This document shows, piece after piece, positions 8,257 to 50,326 of a DNA stretch of 64,000 bases (positions are counted from its first letter, which is position 1; each line of letters begins with the position of its first letter). The stretch comes from a virus. The stretch covers positions 71,612 through 135,611 of the IMG/VR virus record IMGVR_UViG_3300025137_000017; one strand, given 5' to 3'. A program made the translations under genes and the position numbers. Below the pieces are notes generated by a model. That model worked only from the letters and a program-made list of their open reading frames with translations, made no database searches and was not told the DNA's origin.

Positions 8257-8310
8257 GACTGTTTTGCATAAATAATACTATAGACAAACACTTTTAAAAG
8301 GAGATTTAAG

Positions 8311-8928
8311 ATGGCTGTAATTGCAAATTTTGGTGTACCGGTATCCGGAGGTGGTGATGCCACTCTAATGCCGAAACTACAATATCGTTTCCGTGTCAAG
8401 TTTACAAACTTGGGAAACAGTAACAACGGAGCTCTAGTAACTAAGAATGTTATTAGTGTAACCCGTCCAGCACTAGACCATGAAGATGTTACAATTGATG
8501 TATACAACTCAAAGATTCGTTTAGCTGGAAAACATACATGGCAGGACATTACACTCGTTATTCGTGACGATGTAAACAGTGATGTTATTACACAATTAGG
8601 AAATCAAATTTCCGCACAAGTTAACCATGCTGGTCAGAGTTCACAAAAAAGTGGCTCAGCTTATAAGTTTGGAATGACAATTGAAACACTAGACGGAGCC
8701 CACGATGAAGGCGATGCTGGTGTATTAGATAGTTGGGATATTGCAGGTGCATTTATTCCTAGTATCCAATATGGAGATCTAAACTACAGTTCAAGTGAGT
8801 TTGTTCAGTGTACTATAACTATTCGTTATGATAACGCAGCTCATAACATTGGTACAGCAGACGTACTAAGTGGTAGCACAATTACAGCTGGAGCCGGAGA
8901 TAGTTCAGCAGTAACAACTACAACATAA
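8311..8928 (+). CDS. tail tube protein (gp19-like)
   Basis: PKLQYRFRV, LAGKHTWQDITL, GDLNYSS...ITIRYD; follows sheath; TAAATA at 8269. Confidence 0.85.
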   Translation: MAVIANFGVPVSGGGDATLMPKLQYRFRVKFTNLGNSNNGALVTKNVISVTRPALDHEDVTIDVYNSKIRLAGKHTWQDITLVIRDDVNSDVITQLGNQISAQVNHAGQSSQKSGSAYKFGMTIETLDGAHDEGDAGVLDSWDIAGAFIPSIQYGDLNYSSSEFVQCTITIRYDNAAHNIGTADVLSGSTITAGAGDSSAVTTTT

Positions 8929-12288: not shown

Positions 12289-13308
12289 ATGAATGAACTA
12301 GAAAGAATTCTTAATCTAGCAGGAGTAAGTTATGAGGCTCCAAAGAAGATTGAAGAAACAACAGAAATTGCTGAAGATAATCCAAATTATGATTCAGCAC
12401 CGGGTGAAGAAGCTGCGAAGGCGGCAAGAAATAGACGAGATGATGACCAACTAGAACAAGACTACCAGGCTAATAGACAACGTAAAAAACGTAGAATCAA
12501 AGATCTAATATCCAACAATCCAGCAAGTGAATTTAGTCACATGTATAAAGAAGATGATCTTGATGAAGCACCAAACGAAGGTAACGAATTTTCAGGCAAT
12601 CGTAAGGCGGCTATTGATGCTGGCGAAGACGAGTTTGAAGTAGACGGAAAGAAATATAAAGTCTCCGGAAACAAAAACGAGTCAATCGAAGAAGACGAAG
12701 AGCAACTAGACGAAGAGCAAAGCCAAGCACAAAAAGACGCATTTGCAAAAATGTTAGCTAAGAAAAAAGGCGACAAAAAAGACACAATAGACCATGAAAA
12801 GCAACATGTTAAAGAAGACGATGTTGAAGAAATTGTAGAAGCAGAAGAAGGCAAAATGCCATCCAAAGCAGAAGTAATGAAATGTTGTGAAGACGGAATG
12901 AGTGAAGCAGAGATTTGTAAAAAGTATCCAGATTGTGATCAAGAAAAACTTAAAGAGATGTGTAAAGATTGCAAAGCGGAAATGAACGATGTAAAAGAAT
13001 CATTAGAGGTTGTTGAAGAATCACCTACAATGGACACTACACAGTTAATTACATTACTTAAAAACTCAGGTATTAGTGAAGATCAGATTGCTAATCGTTT
13101 AAAAATAATTGAGGAAGAGTTCGGAAACACTCCAGAAGGCGTTGGTGAAACAGAGCCTACAGTACATGGTAGTGATGACAACTATAACTTTGCACAAGCA
13201 GTAAACCTAAGTCTAAAAAGATATTTGGATGCACATGATATGAAAGTTTCAGTAACAGAGCATACAAAAGAAGATTTAACAGCAAAGTATCTAGCTTCTA
13301 AGAAGTAA
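12289..13308 (+). CDS. acidic head/prohead core-like protein
   Basis: Starts MNELERILNLAGV; very E/D-rich with LDE/A, VKE/S, VVEE/S-type sites. Confidence 0.55.
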   Translation: MNELERILNLAGVSYEAPKKIEETTEIAEDNPNYDSAPGEEAAKAARNRRDDDQLEQDYQANRQRKKRRIKDLISNNPASEFSHMYKEDDLDEAPNEGNEFSGNRKAAIDAGEDEFEVDGKKYKVSGNKNESIEEDEEQLDEEQSQAQKDAFAKMLAKKKGDKKDTIDHEKQHVKEDDVEEIVEAEEGKMPSKAEVMKCCEDGMSEAEICKKYPDCDQEKLKEMCKDCKAEMNDVKESLEVVEESPTMDTTQLITLLKNSGISEDQIANRLKIIEEEFGNTPEGVGETEPTVHGSDDNYNFAQAVNLSLKRYLDAHDMKVSVTEHTKEDLTAKYLASKK

Positions 13309-13309
13309 A

Positions 13310-13978
13310 ATGCACGGATTAAACTATTCATTGAATGGTGATATACGAAGATTGAACATTGATTCCAGTAGCAGATGTAATCTATCATGTCCAGGATGTG
13401 GCAGGACAAGAGACATTGCTAATGGAACTAATGGTTCAATTGAAGACATGCCAATGGAATACTTCAAAGCACTGGTACGTCCAGAAAATAGAATTACCCA
13501 ACTAACATATAATTTTGCACTAAGTGATCCTATCTACAGTGGTGTAGTTCTAGATCAACTAGCACATATAAACACATTAGACAATAGACCTATTGTCAAT
13601 TTTAGTACCAATGCGAGTGGTCGTAAACCCAAATGGTGGATTAAATTTGCAGGTCTATTGCGAGAACGAGATAAAGTAGAGTTTGCAATTGACGGACTGG
13701 AAGATACTAATCACTTATACAGAGTTAATTCAAAATGGGATAGTATTATGTTGGGTGCTAAAACCCTAAGAAAACATTGGAATCCACCGCCTGGTGGGGG
13801 AATGATGTGGCGTTATGTTATATTTGAACATAACTATCATCAAGTAGCTGAAGCAAAAAAACTAGCAATTGAACTAGGCTTTAATAGATTTAGGCCTGTT
13901 GTAGGGGATAAAAGAACACCCCAACATATGCGATTAAAAAGTAGAACTTGGGAAGAGATAGAACATGATCTATCCTAA
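13310..13978 (+). CDS. radical SAM protein (core domain only)
   Basis: CNLSCPGC (CxxxCxxC), STNAS, FAIDGLEDTNHLYR, IFEHNYHQV. Confidence 0.85.
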   Translation: MHGLNYSLNGDIRRLNIDSSSRCNLSCPGCGRTRDIANGTNGSIEDMPMEYFKALVRPENRITQLTYNFALSDPIYSGVVLDQLAHINTLDNRPIVNFSTNASGRKPKWWIKFAGLLRERDKVEFAIDGLEDTNHLYRVNSKWDSIMLGAKTLRKHWNPPPGGGMMWRYVIFEHNYHQVAEAKKLAIELGFNRFRPVVGDKRTPQHMRLKSRTWEEIEHDLS

Positions 13979-14285
13979 ATGCAAACATAAAGAAAAACAA
14001 GTACCTGCTGTTAGATATGATGGCTATGTGGTTCCTTGTTGTCACTTCGGAAACTGGAATGATATTGAAGTATTCAGAGAACGCATGGGAGATCTTGTGG
14101 AAACAATGCATATAACTAATGGTACTCTAGATGAAATTAATAATAGTCTAGCTTGGAAGTTTATTGAAGATAGTTTTGATAATGAACCATTTGCTAGATG
14201 TGTTCAACATTGTAGTGATCCAGAAAACTACAAAAAAACTAAAAGTAATGTAGGAGCAGACTTTAAAGTAATAAGTTTAGAATAA
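13965..14285 (+). CDS. stand-alone SPASM/twitch Fe-S domain protein
   Basis: C..., VRYDGYVVPCC, NGTLDEI, CxxxC (CVQHC); overlaps radical SAM stop. Confidence 0.7.
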   Translation: MIYPKCKHKEKQVPAVRYDGYVVPCCHFGNWNDIEVFRERMGDLVETMHITNGTLDEINNSLAWKFIEDSFDNEPFARCVQHCSDPENYKKTKSNVGADFKVISLE

Positions 14286-14533
14286 TGATGGTTTGGGAGA
14301 CATTTATAATATGCTTGGTATTCTTATTAGTTATCATGGCGGCCATGAGTATAGGCCTCCTGAGAGGCCGACGTGTAAAAGGGAGTTGCGGTGGTGCTAC
14401 CGGCGTTTGCTCTGTATGTGGCGAAGACAATGCAAAAGAAAAGATAGTTATCAAAGGTGAAGAACATTTAAAACGTCCTGAGCCAACACGTTACGGAACG
14501 TGGGAAAGTAAAGGCACAGATGTCGACTTTTGA
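14285..14533 (+). CDS. nqrM: NqrM-like (DUF539) membrane-anchored Cys-rich protein
   Basis: TM helix FLLVIMAAMSIG followed by KGSCGG...CSVC, the NqrM signature. Confidence 0.65.
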   Translation: MMVWETFIICLVFLLVIMAAMSIGLLRGRRVKGSCGGATGVCSVCGEDNAKEKIVIKGEEHLKRPEPTRYGTWESKGTDVDF

Positions 14534-14544
14534 TAAATATGTAG

Positions 14545-14638
14545 GTAACGCTTAGGACCCGCTGTTACAGGCGTCAAGGTTACTGTTTATCCTTAAGGAC
14601 ATGGTTCGCTACTCTTGTCTTTTAAAAAACAGACTTTT
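14545..14638 (+). ncRNA. candidate late-transcribed two-hairpin small RNA
   Basis: TAAATA at 14534-14539 puts +1 at 14545, the first base of stem GTAAC/GTTAC; second stem (C)TGTTT..AAGGACA/TGTCTTT..AAACAG with TTCGCTAC loop; T-run follows; next gene has its own promoter. Confidence 0.55.
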
Positions 14639-14655
14639 AACAGATAAATATTAAT

Positions 14656-15339
14656 ATGAATAAATTATTTGCATTTGGTTGTAGTATGACAAGAGGAGAT
14701 GCATTAGATGATATATGGGATTTCGAACTCAAGCAGACAGATCCAGATGCAGGTCCAAGTAAATATTCCTGGCCACAAATCCTAGCAAACAATATGAATT
14801 TAGATTGTGTTAACTTAGGAGAAAGTGGTGCTAGTAATAAACAGATTTGGTATAGATTGGTAACTACACATATGACAGAAGTCGATATAGCATTTGTACA
14901 ATGGACATCAGTAAATAGATGGTGTGTACTAAATGATGACAAAATACAACAGATTAATTCATTTCGTACAAGCAAACAATCCCTAGCATATTATGGGAAT
15001 CTACACACTGATATTGATTCAGACTATGATGCAAATTTAAGAATGAGTCATGCAGATTATCATGCTAAAAGTATTGGGGTTAAGTTATATCATCTAACAT
15101 TTGATAAATCAAGTCTATCCGATAACTTACCTTTTAATACAACAGAAACACTTAATAGTGATTTACATGAACTTCAAAGAGATATCCATAAAGAATATAC
15201 AACAGATACACAGGATTTTAATACTGGACACAGCATGACAAGAGGATCTGCCAATGATAAAACTGATAAAAAATTGGGACATCCTTGTGCTATCACACAT
15301 AAATTACATGCATACAATCTATACGAGGAGATTTCCTAA
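14656..15339 (+). CDS. SGNH/GDSL hydrolase-like protein
   Basis: FGCSMTRG (block I), NLGESGASN (block II), VQWT, C-terminal GHP; leaderless from TAAATA 14645. Confidence 0.6.
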   Translation: MNKLFAFGCSMTRGDALDDIWDFELKQTDPDAGPSKYSWPQILANNMNLDCVNLGESGASNKQIWYRLVTTHMTEVDIAFVQWTSVNRWCVLNDDKIQQINSFRTSKQSLAYYGNLHTDIDSDYDANLRMSHADYHAKSIGVKLYHLTFDKSSLSDNLPFNTTETLNSDLHELQRDIHKEYTTDTQDFNTGHSMTRGSANDKTDKKLGHPCAITHKLHAYNLYEEIS

Positions 15340-16889
15340 TGGCAGTAGATACCAAACTAACTAAAACTCCCTATAAGAGAGAAGAATACACAAGTGATCA
15401 ACTGGTTGAACTTGCCAGGTGTGCGGCTGACCCCAAACACTTTATGCTAAAGTATTGTTATATTCAGCATCCTGTTAAAGGAAGAATGTTATTTACATTA
15501 TATGATTATCAAGTTGGACTGGTAGATGTATATCACAATAATAGATACAGTATCAGTATGTTAGCACGACAAACAGGTAAGTCAACCTGTGCGGCAGGAT
15601 ATCTGTTATGGTATGCTATGTTTAATCCTGATCAAACTATTCTAATCGCGGCTCACAAATACAGTGGTGCCCAAGAGATTATGCAACGTATACGATTTGC
15701 ATACGAACTATTACCTGACTTTATTAGAGCTGGTGTAACTGCTTATAACAAAGGTAGTTTAGAGTTTGATAATGGAAGTCGTATTATTGCACAAGCAACA
15801 ACAGACAATACAGGACGTGGTTTGTCTATATCACTAGTATACTTAGACGAGTTTGCATTTGTTAGACCAACTATAGCCCGTGAGTTCTGGACCTCACTAT
15901 CGCCTACACTAGCAACAGGTGGTAAATGTATCATTACAAGCACTCCTAATCAGGACGATGATCAATTTGCACAAATATGGAATGAAGCCCTAAAAAATAT
16001 TGATGAATTTGGTAATGAAACTACAACAGGCAGGAATGGATTCGCACACTTTTTAGCTAATTGGGAAGTACATCCTGATAGAGATCAAAAATGGGCAGAA
16101 TTAGAAGAAGCTAAAATTGGTGAAGAACGATTTAGACGTGAACACAACTGTGAATTTATTGCATTTGATGAAACACTTGTAGACAGTATAAGACTAGCAA
16201 TGATGGAAGGTAAAAACCCATATGCTAAACAAGGACAAGTACGTTGGTATAAGCCTGTAGTTAAAGAAGCAATATACATGATTGGATTAGATCCTAGTTT
16301 AGGTACTGGTGGAGATAATGCGGCTATACAGGTATATGAACTTCCGGGTATGAAACAAGTAGCAGAATGGCAACACAATAAAACACCCGTTCAACAACAG
16401 ATTCGTATACTACAACAGATAGGCAATTACCTAGCAGAAGAAGGTGTTAATAAAGATAATGTATACTATAGCATAGAAAATAATACTCTTGGCGAAGCTG
16501 CTCTTGTAATGCTGGAAGAGATTGGTGAAGAGCATTTAGTAGGTACAATGCTAACAGAACCTAAACGTAGAGGAATGGGTAGAATTCGTAAAGGTTTTAC
16601 TACAACACACAAAAGTAAAATTGCCGCCTGTGCCAAACTAAAGCATTGGATAGAAAGCGATAGAGTGGAGATTGCTAGTAAGAATCTACTTCGTGAGTTA
16701 AAGACGTTTGTAGCCAGAGGACAAAGTTTCTCAGCAAAAGAAGGTGAATCTGATGATCTAGTAATGGCACTTATACTTGTTGTTAGAATGGCACAAGAAA
16801 TTACAAAATATGATGACAATGCCTTTGATGCATTAACAGAAATGAATGAAGATGATTACGAAGAACCTATGCCAATGAGCTTTTTATAA
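15339..16889 (+). CDS. terminase large subunit (gp17-like)
   Basis: ARQTGKS Walker A, YLDEFAF Walker B, ITSTPN, GLDPSLG nuclease Asp, DDLVMAL. Confidence 0.95.
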   Translation: MAVDTKLTKTPYKREEYTSDQLVELARCAADPKHFMLKYCYIQHPVKGRMLFTLYDYQVGLVDVYHNNRYSISMLARQTGKSTCAAGYLLWYAMFNPDQTILIAAHKYSGAQEIMQRIRFAYELLPDFIRAGVTAYNKGSLEFDNGSRIIAQATTDNTGRGLSISLVYLDEFAFVRPTIAREFWTSLSPTLATGGKCIITSTPNQDDDQFAQIWNEALKNIDEFGNETTTGRNGFAHFLANWEVHPDRDQKWAELEEAKIGEERFRREHNCEFIAFDETLVDSIRLAMMEGKNPYAKQGQVRWYKPVVKEAIYMIGLDPSLGTGGDNAAIQVYELPGMKQVAEWQHNKTPVQQQIRILQQIGNYLAEEGVNKDNVYYSIENNTLGEAALVMLEEIGEEHLVGTMLTEPKRRGMGRIRKGFTTTHKSKIAACAKLKHWIESDRVEIASKNLLRELKTFVARGQSFSAKEGESDDLVMALILVVRMAQEITKYDDNAFDALTEMNEDDYEEPMPMSFL

Positions 16890-21295: not shown

Positions 21296-22006
21296 ATGGC
21301 TAAAAAATCTAAAATTATCAGCGGATACAATCCACAAGAAGTACTTGCTCTAGGAGTACAAACCTACAATGCACAGGGCTTCGTTCGTAGTGGCGATGGG
21401 TATATTAAAGTAGACCCAAATACAGGTGAGAAATCAACCGAAGTCAAGGATAACAAATCGCTTATTCTTGATCTAATCGCTGATAACACCCGCCCTTCCC
21501 CAGAAGATATGCAAGAAGCACAAGTTATCATGGACAAGTTCAGTGGTAAATTTATGTTGAAAAAACTACAAGGTAGTTTAACTCGCTTTGAAACCAGTGT
21601 AAGTGAGGCGTTCACTAATGATCTTACTAACTTTACTGTTGCAGTTATTGCCAGTATTCCTCATATGAATGTTATTGACAAAGTAAGACAAACTATTACA
21701 GATAAAATTGAAGAGTTACGTTTTAAAAGTGATTACTTTGGTGATGTCCGTACACGTTATGATCTTTCAGTAGAGATTATTGATGTAAAGTTTATTCAAA
21801 CATCAGGTGTATACATGATCACTAGTGTATATAATGACACAGATATTATTAAGTTTTGGTGGAGAGATCAGCCAGATATCAGTGATATTATTAACGGTAA
21901 AACTGTTACTATTCGTGGAACAGTTCTCAAACATGAGAATAGTAAGTATTCCAAAGCAAAAGAAACAATGTTAAATCGTGTTAAAATTATGGGAGAGCTA
22001 AAATAA
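21296..22006 (+). CDS. hypothetical protein, possible C-terminal OB fold
   Basis: sigma70 promoter at 21231-21258; C-terminus VTIRGTVLKH...ETMLNRVK resembles OB-fold strands. Confidence 0.55.
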   Translation: MAKKSKIISGYNPQEVLALGVQTYNAQGFVRSGDGYIKVDPNTGEKSTEVKDNKSLILDLIADNTRPSPEDMQEAQVIMDKFSGKFMLKKLQGSLTRFETSVSEAFTNDLTNFTVAVIASIPHMNVIDKVRQTITDKIEELRFKSDYFGDVRTRYDLSVEIIDVKFIQTSGVYMITSVYNDTDIIKFWWRDQPDISDIINGKTVTIRGTVLKHENSKYSKAKETMLNRVKIMGELK

Positions 22007-22203
22007 TGAAATGGGACGAACCAGAGGTTATGACTGTAACATGTACAGATAACGATAAGACTGCTGAAGTTACTATTATCCGTAAATCACACGATATCAT
22101 TCGTGCAGAACTACAAGGCATACCATTAAACTTTAAGAAATATAAGCCAGGCGTATATATTGCTAATATGAGTGGTATGGAATTTGTCCTTAAAACAAAA
22201 TAA
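22006..22203 (+). CDS. small hypothetical protein
   Basis: TAATG-coupled ORF with GGGAG SD. Confidence 0.6.
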   Translation: MKWDEPEVMTVTCTDNDKTAEVTIIRKSHDIIRAELQGIPLNFKKYKPGVYIANMSGMEFVLKTK

Positions 22204-22259
22204 ATTTCAAAAGATTTATAAGCATTTGATATTGCTGAATAAAAGAGTCAACTCTTTTC

Positions 22260-22288
22260 TTGACAGTAAGGCATATCGGTGTTATAAT
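22260..22288 (+). promoter_or_regulatory. sigma70-type promoter TTGACAGTAAG...TGtTATAAT
   Basis: Consensus -35, extended -10, 17-nt spacer. Confidence 0.8.
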
Positions 22289-22328
22289 CTTTATATAATT
22301 AGATATTAAACACAAACAGGAGTTTGAA

Positions 22329-23189
22329 TTGAGAACAATGGCACTTAAGACTAACCGCAAGTCTAAAAAAGCGGACTCTATTATTAGTGTAGTTAACGAT
22401 GCAGTTGATAATCCTAACGAAACAGATGACCAGATTATTGAAAGACTTCGTACAAGATTTGAGATACTTGATGATATGACACAGGCCTCAATAGATGGTG
22501 TTGTTAGAGGTATGGTAGTAACAGGCCCTCCAGGCGTAGGTAAATCATTTGGTGTAGAAGCACAATTAGAAAAGAACAGTTTGTTCGATAAGATTGCAGG
22601 CAACAAGTTACGTTTTGAAGTTGTTAAAGGCGCCAGTAGTGCAATTGGCTTGTATAAGACACTATACCAAAATGCAGACAAGAACAATGTACTAGTATTA
22701 GATGATTGTGATACAGTATTGTATGACGAGACAAGTCTTAACCTACTTAAGGCGGCACTAGATTCCAGTAAGAAACGTAAACTTAATTGGAATACAGATA
22801 GTTCATTGTTAAGACGTGAAGGTATTCCAGACTGTTTTGAATTTAAGGGTTCAGTTATTTTTATTACTAACCTAAAGTTTGATAAGGTACGTGGTAAAAT
22901 TAAAGACCACTTGGATGCTATTATGTCACGTTGTCACTACTTAGACTTAACTATGGATACAACTCGTGAAAAGGTTCTACGTTGTAAGCAGATTGTTAAA
23001 GATGGTATGCTTAATGAATACGAATTTGACAAGGCAACTGAGGATCAAGTTGTAAACTTTATGATTGACCAGAAGGATAAAATGAGAGAGATCTCACTCC
23101 GTATGGTAACCAAGATTGCAGACCTTCGTAAAGCAATGCCAGAGAAATGGCAAGCAGTAGCTGAAGTTACTTGTATGCGAAGGATGTGA
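22329..23189 (+). CDS. AAA+ ATPase of unknown function
   Basis: GPPGVGKS Walker A, LVLDDCD Walker B, FITN sensor 1, AIMSRC arginine finger. Confidence 0.8.
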   Translation: MRTMALKTNRKSKKADSIISVVNDAVDNPNETDDQIIERLRTRFEILDDMTQASIDGVVRGMVVTGPPGVGKSFGVEAQLEKNSLFDKIAGNKLRFEVVKGASSAIGLYKTLYQNADKNNVLVLDDCDTVLYDETSLNLLKAALDSSKKRKLNWNTDSSLLRREGIPDCFEFKGSVIFITNLKFDKVRGKIKDHLDAIMSRCHYLDLTMDTTREKVLRCKQIVKDGMLNEYEFDKATEDQVVNFMIDQKDKMREISLRMVTKIADLRKAMPEKWQAVAEVTCMRRM

Positions 23190-49205: not shown

Positions 49206-49281
49206 GCCGCAATAGCTCAGTTGGTAGAGCAATGGTTTTGTAAACCATAGGTCCCGAGTTCGAATCTTGGTTGCGGCACCA
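49206..49281 (+). tRNA. tRNA-Thr(TGT)
   Basis: Cloverleaf GCCGCAA/TTGCGGC, anticodon arm ATGGT-TTTGTAA-ACCAT, TTCGAAT, encoded CCA. Confidence 0.95.
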
Positions 49282-49300
49282 TTTTATAGGGAGATAAAAG

Positions 49301-49513
49301 ATGGCTAAAGTAGGAGAACTAATAACACAAGCGGCTCGCAAACAAGCAGAAGGTGAGATTGCAGTACACCTAGCTAACATTGAAGTATACAGGACAATGC
49401 CAGCTGGTATTGGCGAACATTCAGATGTTACAGAAGCCGTGATTGCAGAGTTAAACAAACTTGCAGAAGCAGATGATAGACTATCTATGCTTAACAAATA
49501 CTTTAGCGAATAG
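49301..49513 (+). CDS. small conserved hypothetical protein
   Basis: GGGAG SD; HLANIEVY..MPAGIGEHSD motif. Confidence 0.7.
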   Translation: MAKVGELITQAARKQAEGEIAVHLANIEVYRTMPAGIGEHSDVTEAVIAELNKLAEADDRLSMLNKYFSE

Positions 49514-49569
49514 GGTAGTTACTTAATAAACTCACATAGGCCAACGGTTAGCCTATTAGGACAAAGTAT

Positions 49570-49654
49570 GCGCCTATGGTGGAATTGGTAGACACGCAGG
49601 TTTTAGGTACCTGTGCTTTACGGCGTGGGGGTTCAAGTCCCTCTAGGCGCACCA
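49570..49654 (+). tRNA. tRNA-Leu(TAG)
   Basis: GCGCCTA/TAGGCGC, CAGGT-TTTAGGT-ACCTG, long variable arm, TTCAAGT, CCA. Confidence 0.95.
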
Positions 49655-49794
49655 TACCAAAACTTGTAGATGAGATATTATATCACTGTATGCAAGTAGG
49701 ACAAAACGACTTGGTGGAACAAAATAAACGGACAACGCGGCCACCTGAAAGAATCCGCAACGATAGGAAATACTTATACAAAACAAATATTAAA

Positions 49795-49829
49795 GTAGCC
49801 CTGGCAGTTAAATGCTAGGGTTACATTTT
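49795..49829 (+). terminator. 12-bp hairpin (terminator or processing site)
   Basis: gtagccctggca/tgctagggttac followed by ATTTT. Confidence 0.55.
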
Positions 49830-49844
49830 CAGAGGATACAATAA

Positions 49845-50156
49845 ATGGCAGATCAAGAAAGACATATGGATTACATGACTAGACGTTTAAGAGAAGAACG
49901 TGAAATTGATGAAGCCAATCAAATAAAGACAGTACAAAATATACAGAGTCAATTGACTAAACTAGAAACTAAAATAGATAGTCTAATTGAGCTATTATCG
50001 GTAAAGTGTTACGGTAGCACATCAGTCTCCAAAACTGAGGGCCTGGGTTCGACTCCTAGTACCGATGCCAATAAGAAACTTGATCATTGGATGGAAATGC
50101 ATAACAGTAGCCTAGATCATGAAGGTAAAATGAAAGCAAACTTTTGGAAGGAATAG
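49845..50156 (+). CDS. hypothetical coiled-coil protein whose frame spans tRNA-Trp
   Basis: GAGGA SD, coiled-coil N-half, no stop through the tRNA, next ORF starts 3 nt after stop. Confidence 0.5.
   Translation: MADQERHMDYMTRRLREEREIDEANQIKTVQNIQSQLTKLETKIDSLIELLSVKCYGSTSVSKTEGLGSTPSTDANKKLDHWMEMHNSSLDHEGKMKANFWKE
49997..50070 (+). tRNA. tRNA-Trp(CCA)
   Basis: ATCGGTA/TACCGAT, TCAGT-CTCCAAA-ACTGA, TTCGACT, G73-CCA; atypical A at position 8. Confidence 0.88.
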
Positions 50157-50159
50157 AAA

Positions 50160-50243
50160 ATGAATCCCAACCCACACTACATAAACATGCTTATTAATAT
50201 AGGTATTTTTGGATTACTCATTTACGTTGCAATAAACGTATAA
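50160..50243 (+). CDS. 27-aa hydrophobic peptide (not in ORF track)
   Basis: MNPNPHYINMLINIGIFGLLIYVAINV with AAGGA SD. Confidence 0.4.
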   Translation: MNPNPHYINMLINIGIFGLLIYVAINV

Positions 50244-50249
50244 ACGAAT

Positions 50250-50326
<77 letters not shown>

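What the first reader, a model, noticed from the sequence alone, without database searches (positions are those of the whole stretch)
14534..14640. Candidate late small RNA with its own promoter upstream of the terminase operon
Seen: TAAATA (14534-39) with the 5-nt spacing gives +1 = G14545, exactly the first base of stem GTAAC(14545-49)/GTTAC(14579-83), which encloses CTTAGGACC and CGC/GCG pairs. A second hairpin TGTTT..AAGGACA / TGTCTTT..AAACA with loop TTCGCTAC follows and ends in a T-run. No plausible ORF is evident, and the next gene has a separate TAAATA at 14645, so it is not needed as a leader. Inference: a stand-alone ~90-nt RNA made during morphogenesis; a packaging/assembly RNA or a protein decoy are possibilities. 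I recognise no named family.
Basis: partly seen in the sequence, partly recalled or inferred. Interest (0 to 1): 0.8.

Follow-up and report, generated by a model that had tools for sequence, protein, structure and literature searches.

The report
Phage small RNA antisense to 23S rRNA
The hairpins upstream of the terminase genes are a real small RNA gene from a large, apparently uncatalogued family found in giant phages, and its two unpaired loops are the exact mirror image of a universally conserved stretch of the host's large ribosomal RNA.

Summary
On its own the fold is unremarkable (MFE z = +0.11). Comparison with other sequences changes the picture.

- **Family membership.** Window 14545-14638 (+) is a divergent member of a very abundant structured RNA family in IMG/VR phage contigs. 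The cultured Pseudomonas jumbo phage PA5oct also carries it.
- **Independent test.** A covariance model trained without the window or its close relatives finds this site as the only significant hit in 64 kb (18.7 bits, E 1.1e-4).
- **Structure.** The family shows strong covariation, including a pseudoknot: 90.3% of cells paired against 67.9% in shuffles, 0 of 500 shuffles as high.
- **Databases and papers.** It matches nothing in Rfam 15, and six of my seven paper searches looked for it and found none (only located the PA5oct paper).
- **rRNA complementarity.** Loops L1 (14551-14559) and L4 (14605-14612) are together the exact antisense of E. coli 23S rRNA 1921-1937.
- **Copy number and context.** The RNA occurs once or twice per genome, beside unrelated genes. 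It is not tied to terminase.

Best reading: a trans-acting small RNA that pairs with host 23S rRNA. The pairing function is inferred, not shown. A packaging-RNA role is not supported.

The parts
14533..14539 (+). ATAAATA, a T4-type late-promoter-like motif. It overlaps the TGA stop of the 82-aa ORF.
   Evidence: Sequence. In the window 21 of 23 ATAAATA copies are on the + strand. The same motif lies 11-12 nt before TTAGG in 7 of 195 other family members, against about 0.6 expected. The promoter role is inferred.
14545..14638 (+). Whole predicted small RNA, about 94 nt, running from the inferred +1 to the end of the T run.
   Evidence: R2 match 14543-14643, 18.7 bits, E 1.1e-4, full model length. 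R1 match 14540-14635, 9.4 bits, E 0.012 in 601 nt with filters off. Both ends are inferred, not mapped.
14545..14549 (+). P1 5' strand GTAAC. It pairs with GTTAC at 14579-14583.
   Evidence: The family P1 helix covaries: 6 of 6 pairs show changes on both sides.
14551..14559 (+). L1, CTTAGGACC. It is the exact antisense of E. coli 23S rRNA 1921-1929.
   Evidence: blastn-short match of window element positions 18-26 to rrlH 1929-1921. In the sample seeded independently of L1, the 5' half's longest antisense match starts at 23S 1916-1925 in 54 of 62 distinct members.
14560..14573 (+). P2 short hairpin, CGC ... GCG. Relatives L001 and L002 carry 6-8 extra bases here.
   Evidence: 8-nt insertion behind 14566 in relatives. 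The family P2 helix covaries: 5 of 5 pairs.
14569..14576 (+). Conserved joining segment AGGCGTCA.
   Evidence: A38 G39 G40 C41 G42 are invariant in the 16-sequence alignment A5. Function unknown.
14576..14594 (+). P3 hairpin, AAGG 14576-14579 / CCTT 14591-14594. Its loop holds the 5' strand of the pseudoknot.
   Evidence: Aligned to the P3 helix of models R1 and R2. The family P3 helix is 99.0% paired and 4 of 4 pairs covary.
14583..14588 (+). Pseudoknot (outer helix) 5' strand CTGTTT. It pairs with AAACAG at 14627-14632.
   Evidence: Compensatory changes in relatives: L201 GCCGTT/AACGGC, L204 GGCCGCT/AGCGGCC. The family pseudoknot was not part of the model, yet is 91.1% paired and 4 of 6 pairs covary.
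14595..14622 (+). P4 hairpin, AAGGACATGG / TCTTGTCTTT, enclosing loop L4.
   Evidence: The stem sequence differs completely in L204, L197 and L216 while the loop is kept.
14605..14612 (+). L4, TTCGCTAC. It is the exact antisense of E. coli 23S rRNA 1930-1937.
   Evidence: L1 and L4 together cover 17 contiguous rRNA bases.
14627..14638 (+). Pseudoknot 3' strand AAACAG, then ACTTTT. A terminator-like 3' end, weak in this copy.
   Evidence: In relatives the helix is followed by TTTTTT (L201, L204, L181, L223). The simple terminator scan finds none here.
14644..14650 (+). Second ATAAATA. Promoter-like motif of the next gene, 5 nt before the ATG at 14656.
   Evidence: Conserved before the next ORF in L001, L002 and L003.

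Best explanation
Window 14545-14638 (+) encodes a small non-coding RNA of about 94 nt. It belongs to a large family of structured RNAs, apparently not catalogued, carried once or twice per genome by jumbo and T4-like phages.

**Fold**
- P1 encloses an unpaired segment L1 and a small hairpin P2.
- P3 is a hairpin whose loop pairs with the 3' tail, forming a pseudoknot. In this subfamily that helix is followed by a U run and so probably also sets the 3' end.
- P4 is a hairpin that displays loop L4.

**Expression in this phage**
The RNA probably has its own late-type promoter (ATAAATA, 14533-14539). In most other members it is simply transcribed behind the preceding gene.

**Proposed mechanism**
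L1 (CUUAGGACC) and L4 (UUCGCUAC) are held invariant while every stem drifts and compensates. Together they are the exact antisense of 17 contiguous bases of 23S rRNA (E. coli 1921-1937). This stretch is the 3' side of helix 69 and the strand leading into helix 70, at the subunit interface; the helix names are recalled, not from a call. I propose the RNA acts in trans by clamping this stretch of host 23S rRNA while it is single-stranded, in nascent or unfolded 23S. That would interfere with or redirect 50S maturation or function during infection.

**Shown**: the sequence, family membership, the structure with its covariation, the strand, the complementarity, and the phage restriction.
**Inferred**: transcript ends and timing, and above all the pairing with rRNA and what it does.

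**Confidence by step**: real structured RNA of this family about 0.9; stand-alone late transcript in this phage about 0.6; acts by pairing with 23S rRNA about 0.4. The overall figure of 0.45 is for the whole statement.
For: **1. Family**
A pattern on other parts of the motif also hit the limit.
- Model R1 found 79 matches in 100 loci, never two in one locus, and matches in 67 of 69 further loci.

**2. Membership of the window copy**
- R2 was trained on 16 sequences. It excluded the window and its near relatives (the L001 group, L201, L197/202/206, L204/215). It gives one significant hit in 64 kb at 14543-14643, E 1.1e-4.
- That is the sole hit in the 135.6-kb record.
- Intermediate forms L187 and L313 join the subfamilies.

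**3. Structure**
- On 78 distinct sequences, 90.3% of cells are paired against 67.9% in shuffles. 23 of 25 pairs change on both sides, 0 of 500 shuffles reach this, and slid controls give 33-39%.
- The pseudoknot was not in the model, yet is 91.1% paired.

**4. Strand**
- Pair 93-153 is G-U in 55 sequences. That would be a C-A mismatch on the other strand.

**5. rRNA antisense**
- The real E. coli rrlH carries CGGTCCTAAGGTAGCGAA at 1920-1937. L1 and L4 map there in antisense.
- In a sample seeded on P3 and the tail only, the 5' half's longest antisense match (8-15 nt) starts at 23S 1916-1925 in 54 of 62 distinct members.
- 128 of 129 members have an antisense match of 8 nt or more in 1895-1985. 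The sense, reversed and complement-only controls give 16, 40 and 8.
- L050 matches 22 nt at 95% identity (1910-1931).
- Alternative L4 loops TTACGCCA (4 members) and ACGCCATT / CGCCATT (2 members) are antisense to 23S 1969-1978, about 35 nt further along the same rRNA.

**6. Gene-like distribution**
- One or two copies per genome, including a complete 352-kb genome.
- Neighbours are heterogeneous.
- Restricted to phages: 4 hits, all in MAGs, among 185,579 species genomes.

**7. Own promoter**
- TAAATA at 11-12 nt spacing recurs in 7 of 195 members, against about 0.6 expected.
Against: - No experiment or read data shows a discrete transcript or any RNA-rRNA hybrid.
- The one RNA-library contig that covers the element has depth 3, comes from a relative, and continues 121 nt downstream.
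- Generic co-folding does not single out the target. The energy gain with 23S 1910-1945 is -14.5 kcal/mol, ranking 7th of 239 windows of 23S.
- In the mature 50S subunit the target is base-paired (recalled), so access is a problem.
- L4 is not universal. In the unbiased sample about 25 of 62 members have loop GGAGTCGTGCC and 4 of 62 have GGCCGGGAATCC. Neither has an antisense match of 7 nt or more in domain IV.
- Most members (101 of 123) lie -5 to +19 nt from an upstream stop codon, with no promoter. In PA5oct a separate terminator follows the element. Both facts suit a 3'-UTR element as well.
- In one subgroup L1 is paired in cis with a sense-like CCTAAGG, so L1 is not always free.
- The window copy scores poorly with the canonical model (9.4 bits).
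- The U run here is only 4 T, and the terminator scan finds nothing.
Confidence: 0.45

Rival explanations
1. A cis-acting 3'-end module. The element belongs to the 3' UTR of the preceding gene. It would be a structured terminator, an RNA stabiliser or a processing site, possibly released as a 3'-UTR-derived RNA, and its invariant loops would be bound by a phage or host protein. On this view the rRNA complementarity is an evolutionary relic of a captured antisense rDNA fragment.
For: - 101 of 123 members lie -5 to +19 nt from the stop codon of a same-strand ORF.
- In the window's subfamily the last helix is followed by a U run.
- Many members are followed by a sigma-70-like or late promoter of the next gene.
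- In PA5oct the element sits between a CDS and a classic terminator.
- Only 19 of 195 members have TAAATA within 45 nt upstream.
- Some members carry long, near-contiguous antisense copies of helix 69, which looks like captured sequence (L050, 22 nt; the CTACCTTAGGACC... group).
Against: - One or two copies per genome of 300 kb or more. That is far too few for a general terminator or stabiliser.
- The upstream genes are unrelated (53 clusters among 123).
- The loops stay invariant while all stems turn over, so the sequence itself is under selection and is not a relic.
- Independent lineages have placed a late promoter at a fixed distance from the element.
Confidence: 0.25
2. A riboswitch-like or ribozyme-like cis regulator. 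A compact pseudoknotted fold with invariant unpaired bases would bind a ligand or self-cleave. It would control read-through or translation of the gene that follows.
For: - The architecture resembles known aptamers: about 100 nt, four helices, a pseudoknot and invariant junction or loop bases.
- In 73 of 116 members the next ORF starts 10-59 nt after L4.
- In the window's subfamily the pseudoknot helix plus U run could work as a conditional terminator.
Against: - The downstream genes are unrelated (48 clusters among 116), whereas riboswitch classes go with coherent gene sets.
- Many members have a promoter between the element and the next gene, including the window itself (14645).
- No Rfam riboswitch or ribozyme model matches, even at E up to 10.
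- This reading leaves unexplained why the invariant bases are antisense to rRNA.
Confidence: 0.1
3. One reading: a packaging or assembly RNA made for morphogenesis, functionally tied to the terminase operon, or a protein decoy.
For: - In the window and in L001, L002 and L003 the element lies just upstream of TerL or one gene away.
- A late-type promoter motif precedes it.
- TerL is also the downstream gene in a few distant members such as L107, L160 and L260.
Against: - TerL is downstream in only about 6 of 116 members.
- Other members sit before gp32-like, transcription-regulator, radical-SAM and unknown genes.
- In PA5oct the element is at 115.5 kb while TerL is at 128.8 kb.
- No match to the phi29 pRNA model or any other Rfam model.
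Confidence: 0.03
4. A DNA-level element, or nothing at all. Either it is a recognition or recombination site related to the rDNA site cut by intron homing endonucleases, or it is chance hairpins in an AT-rich spacer.
For: - The matched rRNA stretch is the core of a well-known homing-endonuclease site in 23S rDNA (recalled).
- A GIY-YIG-domain ORF is the upstream neighbour in 7 of 123 members.
- The MFE z-score is +0.11.
Against: - Compensatory base changes and G-U pairs specific to one strand show selection on an RNA fold.
- The two half-sites are separated and permuted relative to rDNA, so no contiguous endonuclease site exists.
- Chance is excluded by the model E-values.
Confidence: 0.03

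Closest known systems
Eukaryotic and archaeal rRNA-directed guide or chaperone RNAs (snoRNAs such as U3, C/D and H/ACA classes)
   Same: A small structured RNA displays short segments complementary to a highly conserved rRNA stretch. The recognition is bipartite.
   Different: - No C/D or H/ACA boxes were looked for, and none is evident.
- It is encoded by phages of bacteria, which have no snoRNP machinery.
- The order of the two guide segments is permuted: the 5' segment pairs with the 5' part of the target.
- No partner enzyme is encoded nearby.
- The resemblance is by analogy and recalled. It was not tested.
Bacterial and plasmid trans-acting antisense RNAs that present their seed in hairpin loops (kissing-loop type)
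   Same: - Recognition bases sit in loops closed by stems that are free to covary.
- About 100 nt long.
- Rho-independent-type 3' end in the window's subfamily.
   Different: - The proposed target is rRNA, not an mRNA or a replication primer.
- There are two loops for one contiguous target.
- It has a pseudoknotted scaffold.
- The family is conserved across very distant phages, not tied to one locus.
Group II intron EBS1/EBS2 - IBS1/IBS2 pairing
   Same: Two separated loop segments pair, in the same 5'-to-3' order, with two adjacent stretches of one target strand. Several organellar and bacterial introns insert in this same 23S region (recalled).
   Different: It is only about 100 nt, has no intron domains, no reverse transcriptase and no splice sites. 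This is an analogy of topology only.
phi29-type packaging RNA (pRNA)
   Different: - No Rfam match.
- Not linked to packaging genes across the family.
- A different fold.
Candidate structured RNAs catalogued from IMG/VR (Fremin, Bhatt and Kyrpides 2023, PMC10690425)
   Same: The same data source and the same kind of object. With more than 120 copies, this motif may well be among their 8,495 IMG/VR candidates.
   Different: I read the abstract and sections 2.4-2.6. Those sections describe neither this motif nor any rRNA complementarity. The supplementary tables that list the motifs were closed, so overlap cannot be excluded.

Membership tests
The phage RNA family defined here (models R1 and R2) | Significant score against a covariance model that was not trained on the sequence or its close relatives. 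| tested here: met
   R2: 18.7 bits, E 1.1e-4, full length, the only hit at E below 1 in the 64-kb window and in the 135.6-kb record. R1, the canonical subtype, gives only 9.4 bits, E 0.012 in a 601-nt search with filters off, and nothing with default filters.
The phage RNA family defined here (models R1 and R2) | Unpaired segment L1 containing CTTAGGACC between P1 and P2. | tested here: met
   14551-14559. TTAGG is shared by nearly all members of the L1-independent sample.
The phage RNA family defined here (models R1 and R2) | P4 hairpin with loop TTCGCTAC (type A loop). | tested here: met
   14595-14622 with the loop at 14605-14612. Type A loops occur in 21 (plus 3 partial) of 62 members sampled without regard to L4.
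The phage RNA family defined here (models R1 and R2) | P3 hairpin whose loop pairs with the 3' tail (pseudoknot). | tested here: met
   AAGG/CCTT, with loop CTGTTT pairing with AAACAG at 14627-14632. Compensatory differences appear in L201 and L204. P3 is only 4 bp and its first base overlaps the P1 3' strand.
Any Rfam 15 family | Score at or above the family's gathering threshold. | tested here: not met
   The window has only 4 tRNAs, elsewhere. The best matches in 14250-14750 are E 1.5 or worse and 13-15 bits, against thresholds of 50-85. Ten loci with canonical members matched only tRNAs. L195 in E-value mode gave nothing relevant.
tRNA / tmRNA | Cloverleaf recognised by ARAGORN. | tested here: not met
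   The 4 tRNAs lie at 49206-50326 only.
Intrinsic (Rho-independent) terminator | A G+C-rich stem-loop immediately followed by a run of at least 5 T in 8. | tested here: not met
   0 sites in 14200-14900. The outer helix has 2 G-C pairs and is followed by ACTTTT. Relatives L201, L204, L181 and L223 do have TTTTTT after a G+C-richer helix, so the feature is met in the subfamily but is degenerate here.
T4-type late promoter | TATAAATA-like box a few bases upstream of the start, with no -35 element (definition recalled). | tested here: inconclusive
   GATAAATA at 14532-14539 matches 7 of 8 positions. The ATAAATA strand bias is 21:2. About 12 of the 21 + strand sites lie within 36 nt of a long ORF's start. 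The spacing to the element recurs in other members. No transcription start data exist.
phi29-type pRNA | Match to the pRNA model, and a conserved link to the packaging genes. | tested here: not met
   No Rfam hit. TerL is downstream in about 6 of 116 members.
C/D or H/ACA guide RNA | Box motifs and a partner RNP enzyme. | not tested
   No box search was run. No such protein was seen among the neighbours examined.

The most novel reading that the evidence does not exclude
Giant phages across marine, freshwater and soil habitats, and one cultured Pseudomonas phage, carry a dedicated small RNA that recognises host 23S rRNA. It would use two scaffold-displayed loops to bind the helix 69 / helix 70 junction, at the heart of the subunit interface. 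That would make it the first natural rRNA-directed guide or antisense RNA in the bacterial world. It could be used to block, mark or re-tool host 50S subunits during infection. The variant L4 loops aimed at 23S 1969-1978 would mean the scaffold is a re-targetable platform.
Probability: 0.35. Interest if true: 0.95.

Novelty: categorically new. Interest (0 to 1): 0.85.

Why it matters
- **A new way to touch the ribosome.** Phages are known to manipulate host translation with proteins, tRNAs and ribosomal-protein genes. An RNA that addresses rRNA by base pairing would be a new mechanism of host take-over. It would also be a bacterial-world counterpart of rRNA-directed guide RNAs.
- **Unusually strong support for an uncharacterised RNA.**
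  - Well over a hundred copies in IMG/VR.
  - Strong covariation, including a pseudoknot.
  - Invariant loops with an obvious candidate target.
- **A testable system exists.** The RNA is present in a cultured, genetically approachable phage, PA5oct on P. aeruginosa PAO1, so the hypothesis can be tested directly.
- **Value even if the pairing idea is wrong.** This is a large, well-defined RNA family missing from Rfam 15, and it is unannotated in PA5oct (115467-115562).

Tried and rejected
**Database and similarity searches**
- Rfam at gathering and E-value thresholds, on the window and on canonical loci: nothing.
- blastn against 50,697 phage records with the window region and with a canonical member: no match. 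PA5oct was found only by pattern and covariance model.
- blastn of a canonical member against E. coli genomes: no match, because the identical stretches are too short for that database size. I then fetched rrlH by accession instead.
- R1 and a 1-mismatch pattern on phages 121Q, Atu_ph07 and Phosso:
  - 121Q and Atu_ph07 gave nothing convincing.
  - Phosso has one candidate with TTCGTTAC, which I did not pursue.

**Model and folding attempts**
- Folding energy alone is not significant.
- The canonical model R1 on the window with default filters, and on the window's own genome: no hit. This was resolved with filters off and with the second model R2.
- RNAalifold on a MAFFT alignment recovered only P3 and the top of P4. 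I set P1 and P2 by hand for the models.
- Co-folding energetics of the element with 23S windows: the target ranks 7th of 239, which is not decisive.

**Scripts that fell short**
- My automatic hairpin-loop caller mis-assigned loops. I replaced it with model-based alignment.
- A 6-nt complementarity of the GGAGTCGTGCC loop to 23S 1964-1969 is within chance, so I do not count it.
- The P3 loop 9-mer CGGCTGCTG is antisense to 16S rRNA near 510-520. But it was my own seed, and this loop covaries with the tail. I treat it as an aside.

**Neighbours and second copies**
- A consistent protein partner among the neighbours: none found.
- Of the second matches, L288 and L289 look like coding false positives. 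L287 is a degenerate paralogue lacking L1.

**Expression**
- 20 of the 23 listed runs hold part of the stretch. Nearly all are marine DNA metagenomes.
- Two RNA-labelled runs hold small shares.
- Laid contigs from RNA run X20 cover 14523-14637 at depth 3 and carry a relative's 8-nt insertion. Run X19 has no cover over the element.
- Contigs cannot show starts, ends or strand. No conclusion on a discrete transcript.

**Paper searches**
Of seven searches (and the find), six looked for the motif and found no description of it; one search was run only to locate the PA5oct paper. What I saw of each paper:
- PMC10690425: abstract and sections 2.4-2.6.
- PMC7318152: passages, including Table 1. Its four ncRNAs lie at other coordinates.
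- 10.64898/2026.09.22.753630: two passages.
- All others: search listings only.
- Supplementary tables were closed and may list this motif.

This report is the same with that field added.
Full report
**1. What is at the locus**

The window looks like part of a jumbo phage.
- Its large terminase (15339-16889) is 55.5% identical to that of Pseudomonas phage PA5oct and relatives (Pfam Terminase_6N and 6C).
- The window is bases 71612-135611 of a 135.6-kb virus record estimated 37% complete.

The finding lies in the 122-nt spacer between an 82-aa ORF (14285-14533) and a 227-aa ORF (14656-15339).

Taken alone the region is unremarkable:
- + strand MFE -20.7 kcal/mol, z = +0.11.
- - strand z = -1.26.
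- No terminator by the simple scan.
- No tRNA at the locus.
- No Rfam family.

**2. Relatives, and the first surprise**

Among 80 IMG/VR loci encoding the closest terminases, nhmmer found the spacer in two: L001 (E 1.2e-27) and L002 (E 1.9e-12). By eye it is also in L003.

In L002 and L003 four genes are absent: the radical-SAM and SPASM genes, the 82-aa ORF and the 227-aa ORF. There the element sits directly between the stop codon of the homologue of window gene 12289-13308 and the TerL start. So the element is kept while its neighbours change. In those two relatives it has no upstream TAAATA.

The stems differ while one loop stays the same. Window AAGGACATGG/TCTTGTCTTT, L002 AATAACAAGG/TCTTGTTATT and L003 AATGTAA/TTACATT all enclose TTCGCTAC. 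The outer helix covaries too: CTGTTT/AAACAG, GCCGTT/AACGGC, GGCCGCT/AGCGGCC.

**3. A very large family**

- A stricter three-part pattern gave 24 stretches. By inspection 18 are the element and 6 are chance matches in coding sequence.
- In the loci held at that point there were 124 distinct element sequences, one of them judged a chance coding match.

The common ("canonical") form has these parts:
- P1, about 5-6 bp.
- Unpaired CCTTAGGACCG (L1).
- Hairpin P2.
- Hairpin P3 with a 7-nt loop, usually GGCTGCT.
- Hairpin P4 with loop ATTCGCTAC (L4).
- A tail AAAGTGAGC that pairs with the P3 loop.

I built model R1 from 28 canonical sequences.
- It found 79 matches in 100 loci (902 kb), never two in one locus.
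- It found matches in 67 of 69 further loci.

Covariation, on the alignment of the 79 matches (78 distinct rows):

| Measure | Observed | Control |
|---|---|---|
| Cells forming standard pairs | 90.3% | 67.9% in shuffles (0 of 500 as high) |
| Same, with partners slid 1-3 columns | - | 33-39% |
| Pairs changed on both sides | 23 of 25 | - |

The pseudoknot was not part of the model, so it is an unbiased test. It is 91.1% paired, and 4 of its 6 pairs change on both sides. One pseudoknot pair is G-U in 55 sequences, which fixes the structured strand as the strand of the flanking genes.

**4. Is the window copy really a member?**

R1 does not find it with default filters. With filters off it aligns end to end but weakly: 14540-14635, 9.4 bits, E 0.012 in 601 nt.

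The window belongs to a subfamily in which P3 is short, its loop is not GGCTGCT, and the pseudoknot helix is followed by a U run. Intermediate sequences connect the two forms. L187 and L313 have the subfamily's CCTAAGGCGTC segment together with the canonical P3 loop and tail.

I built a second model, R2, from 16 such sequences. I deliberately left out the window, the L001 group, L201, L197/202/206 and L204/215.
- R2 finds 14543-14643 as the only significant match in the whole window, on both strands (18.7 bits, E 1.1e-4). The next hit has E 3.8.
- It is the only match in the 135.6-kb record.

Membership is therefore supported by a test that did not use the sequence.

**5. Distribution and context**

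Copy number is one or two per genome. Five large records gave 8 matches. On inspection two of these look like coding false positives and one is a degenerate paralogue. A complete 352-kb genome has one good copy and that paralogue.

The family is essentially confined to phages. The canonical pattern occurs in 4 stretches among 185,579 species genomes, and all 4 are MAG contigs.

It is present in one cultured phage, PA5oct, at 115467-115562 (29.3 bits, E 5.7e-6).
- It lies right after CDS EST35_0189 and before a classic terminator.
- It is not annotated.
- It is not among the four ncRNAs reported for PA5oct, which lie at 8263-8498, 21951-22401, 103065-103368 and 246116-246734 (PMC7318152, passages and Table 1).

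Context across the family:
- 123 of 124 members have a same-strand ORF ending upstream, and in 101 of 123 the element lies -5 to +19 nt from its stop codon.
- Upstream ORFs fall into 53 clusters. Downstream ORFs fall into 48.
- The commonest downstream gene is an 86-aa putative transcriptional regulator (26 of 116; phrog_12534 and phrog_639).
- Other neighbours include radical-SAM/SPASM, GIY-YIG, deaminase-like, ferredoxin-like and gp32-like genes.
- TerL is downstream in about 6 of 116.

There is thus no conserved link to packaging, and no obvious partner enzyme.

**6. Promoter and 3' end**

ATAAATA is strand-biased in the window (21 of 23 copies on +) and depleted against shuffles. About 12 of the 21 + strand copies lie within 36 nt of the start of a long ORF. 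That fits a T4-type late promoter (definition recalled).

Across the family only 19 of 195 members have TAAATA within 45 nt upstream. But 7 have it exactly 11-12 nt before TTAGG, against about 0.6 expected, and these come from unrelated contexts. The window and its three near-identical relatives were dropped by that script's strict stem filter. By my count their spacing is 12 nt.

So a stand-alone, late-transcribed RNA is plausible here. In most other phages the RNA is made behind the preceding gene.

The 3' end is probably set by the pseudoknot helix plus U run. That is clear in relatives (TTTTTT) and weak here (ACTTTT).

Read data could not settle the question. One contig from an RNA library (depth 3, a relative carrying an 8-nt insertion) covers 14523-14637 and continues 121 nt beyond.

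**7. The key observation: the loops are antisense to 23S rRNA**

A text search for the loop words turned up papers on 23S rRNA methylation and on cloning with a homing endonuclease (listing only). That made me compare the element with real rRNA.

In E. coli rrlH the string CGGTCCTAAGGTAGCGAA occupies 1920-1937.
- Window L1 (CTTAGGACC) is the reverse complement of 1921-1929.
- Window L4 (TTCGCTAC) is the reverse complement of 1930-1937.
- Together they cover 17 contiguous bases with no gap or overlap.
- Canonical members cover 1920-1931 and 1929-1937. L050 matches 22 nt (1910-1931, 95% identity).

Those members had been collected using L1 and L4 themselves. So I drew a second sample seeded only on P3 and the tail: 69 new loci, 62 distinct aligned sequences.

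Results for the 5' half:
- Its longest antisense match to 23S (8-15 nt) starts at 1916-1925 in 54 of 62 members.
- 128 of 129 set members have an antisense match of 8 nt or more in 1895-1985.
- The sense, reversed and complement-only controls give 16, 40 and 8.

L4 is less uniform:

| L4 loop | Members (of 62) | Antisense match in 23S domain IV |
|---|---|---|
| (T)TCGCTAC(C) | 21 (plus 3 partial) | 1927-1937 |
| TTACGCCA | 4 | 1971-1978 |
| ACGCCATT / CGCCATT | 2 | 1969-1976 |
| GGAGTCGTGCC | about 25 | none of 7 nt or more |
| GGCCGGGAATCC | 4 | none of 7 nt or more |

The remaining 3 of the 62 (L313, L323, L337) have other loops.

The members with the GGAGTCGTGCC loop mostly extend L1 to CTACCTTAGGACC (1921-1933).

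So the L1 complementarity is nearly universal. Two independent alternative L4 loops also point at the same rRNA domain. Roughly half of the unbiased sample, however, has an L4 that I cannot map to rRNA.

**8. How it most likely works**

- A structured RNA on the + strand.
- Invariant unpaired segments while all helices drift.
- Exact complementarity of those segments to a universally conserved rRNA stretch.
- Low copy number and restriction to phages.

Inferred:
- The RNA pairs in trans with host 23S rRNA at the 3' side of helix 69 and the strand entering helix 70. This region builds the central inter-subunit bridge and contacts tRNAs, release factors and the recycling factor (recalled knowledge).
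- In the mature subunit this stretch is base-paired. The likeliest substrate is therefore nascent or unfolded 23S rRNA.
- The likeliest effect is interference with, or re-direction of, 50S maturation.

The geometry is unusual. The 5' loop pairs with the 5' half of the target, so the two RNA-rRNA helices would abut at 1929/1930, with the scaffold spanning them. That is the same order as the EBS2/EBS1 loops of group II introns.

Points against:
- No direct evidence of pairing.
- Generic co-folding ranks the target only 7th of 239 rRNA windows.
- L1 is masked in cis by a sense-like CCTAAGG in one subgroup.
- The position after stop codons also fits a 3'-UTR element.

My confidence by step:

| Claim | Confidence |
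|---|---|
| Real structured RNA of this family | about 0.9 |
| Stand-alone late transcript in this phage | about 0.6 |
| Acts by pairing with 23S rRNA | about 0.4 |

**9. Comparison with what is known, and novelty**

No Rfam 15 model matches any form of the motif. Of my seven paper searches, six looked for it and found no description; only located the PA5oct paper.

The IMG/VR catalogue of candidate structured RNAs (PMC10690425) may contain it anonymously. I could read only the abstract and sections 2.4-2.6, and the supplements were closed.

The nearest analogues are rRNA-directed guide RNAs of eukaryotes and archaea, loop-displayed antisense RNAs of bacteria and plasmids, and group II intron exon-binding loops. 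In each case the likeness is in how it might work, not membership.

I rate it as a new kind of element. The caveats are that the function is inferred and that the bare motif may already sit in an unnamed catalogue entry.

**10.

- [quoted passage not shown] is largely borne out for this phage.
- [quoted passage not shown] is not borne out.

Noticed in passing
window 13310-14533: Just upstream lie a radical-SAM ORF (13310-13978), an overlapping SPASM-domain ORF (13965-14285) and an 82-aa ORF with a hydrophobic N-terminus and a Cys-rich stretch (14285-14533). Together they look like a small peptide-maturation (RiPP-like) cassette. The whole block is absent from relatives L002 and L003. Radical-SAM/SPASM ORFs are also the downstream neighbour of the RNA in other phages, for example L195.
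   Followed up: partly
window 14656-15339: The 227-aa ORF between the RNA and TerL has only a weak Pfam hit, below threshold. It is present in L001 but absent in L002 and L003, where the RNA abuts TerL. It appears to be an insertion exactly at the start codon.
   Followed up: partly
family P3 loop, e.g. L195:5422-5524 (no equivalent in the window copy): The canonical P3 loop with its flanks, CGGCTGCTG, is the reverse complement of E. coli 16S rRNA near 510-520, the 530-loop region by recall. It was my own search seed, and this loop covaries with the RNA's own tail. It may be coincidence, but a third rRNA-antisense loop would be striking.
   Followed up: partly
L299:1467-1640 (PA5oct NC_071039 115467-115640): PA5oct carries an unannotated copy of the RNA between CDS EST35_0189 and a classic terminator. 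It is not among the four ncRNAs published for this phage.
   Followed up: yes
window 5583, 18060, 34433, 48457, 57339: Several + strand ATAAATA motifs are followed by 69-274 nt with no start of a long ORF. These could be long leaders, small genes or further non-coding RNAs.
   Followed up: no
window 12289-13308; L197, L202, L206, L064-L078: A short peptide motif recurs...ILNLAGV... at the N-terminus of the window's 339-aa protein, and ...ILGLAGLK...LRKLAGM or ...KKLAGI at the C-termini of the genes that precede the RNA or the TerL spacer in other phages. Its meaning is unknown.
   Followed up: no
L064, L065, L070-L078 (TerL 67-70% relatives), about 100 nt upstream of TerL: More distant terminase loci carry a different conserved spacer: CCCTTAATTACAGGCTTAAGGTTTACA, then a G+C-rich terminator, then ATAAGTA. 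It shares short words with the window element (CTTA, ACAGGC, AAGGTT). It may be a remote relative or a different element.
   Followed up: no
L287 (G002:76929-77017): A complete 352-kb phage genome has a second, degenerate copy. It keeps P3, a TCGCTAC loop and the tail, but it has lost L1.
   Followed up: partly
L374-L377: The only hits in the collection of cellular genomes are four MAG contigs of 26.8 kb to 6.6 Mb. Contigs of 183 kb and 312 kb look like jumbo-phage contigs binned into bacterial MAGs. The hit in the 6.6-Mb chromosome was not examined.
   Followed up: no
window 49206-50326: A cluster of four tRNA genes: Thr-TGT, Leu-TAG, Trp-CCA and Arg-ACG.
   Followed up: no
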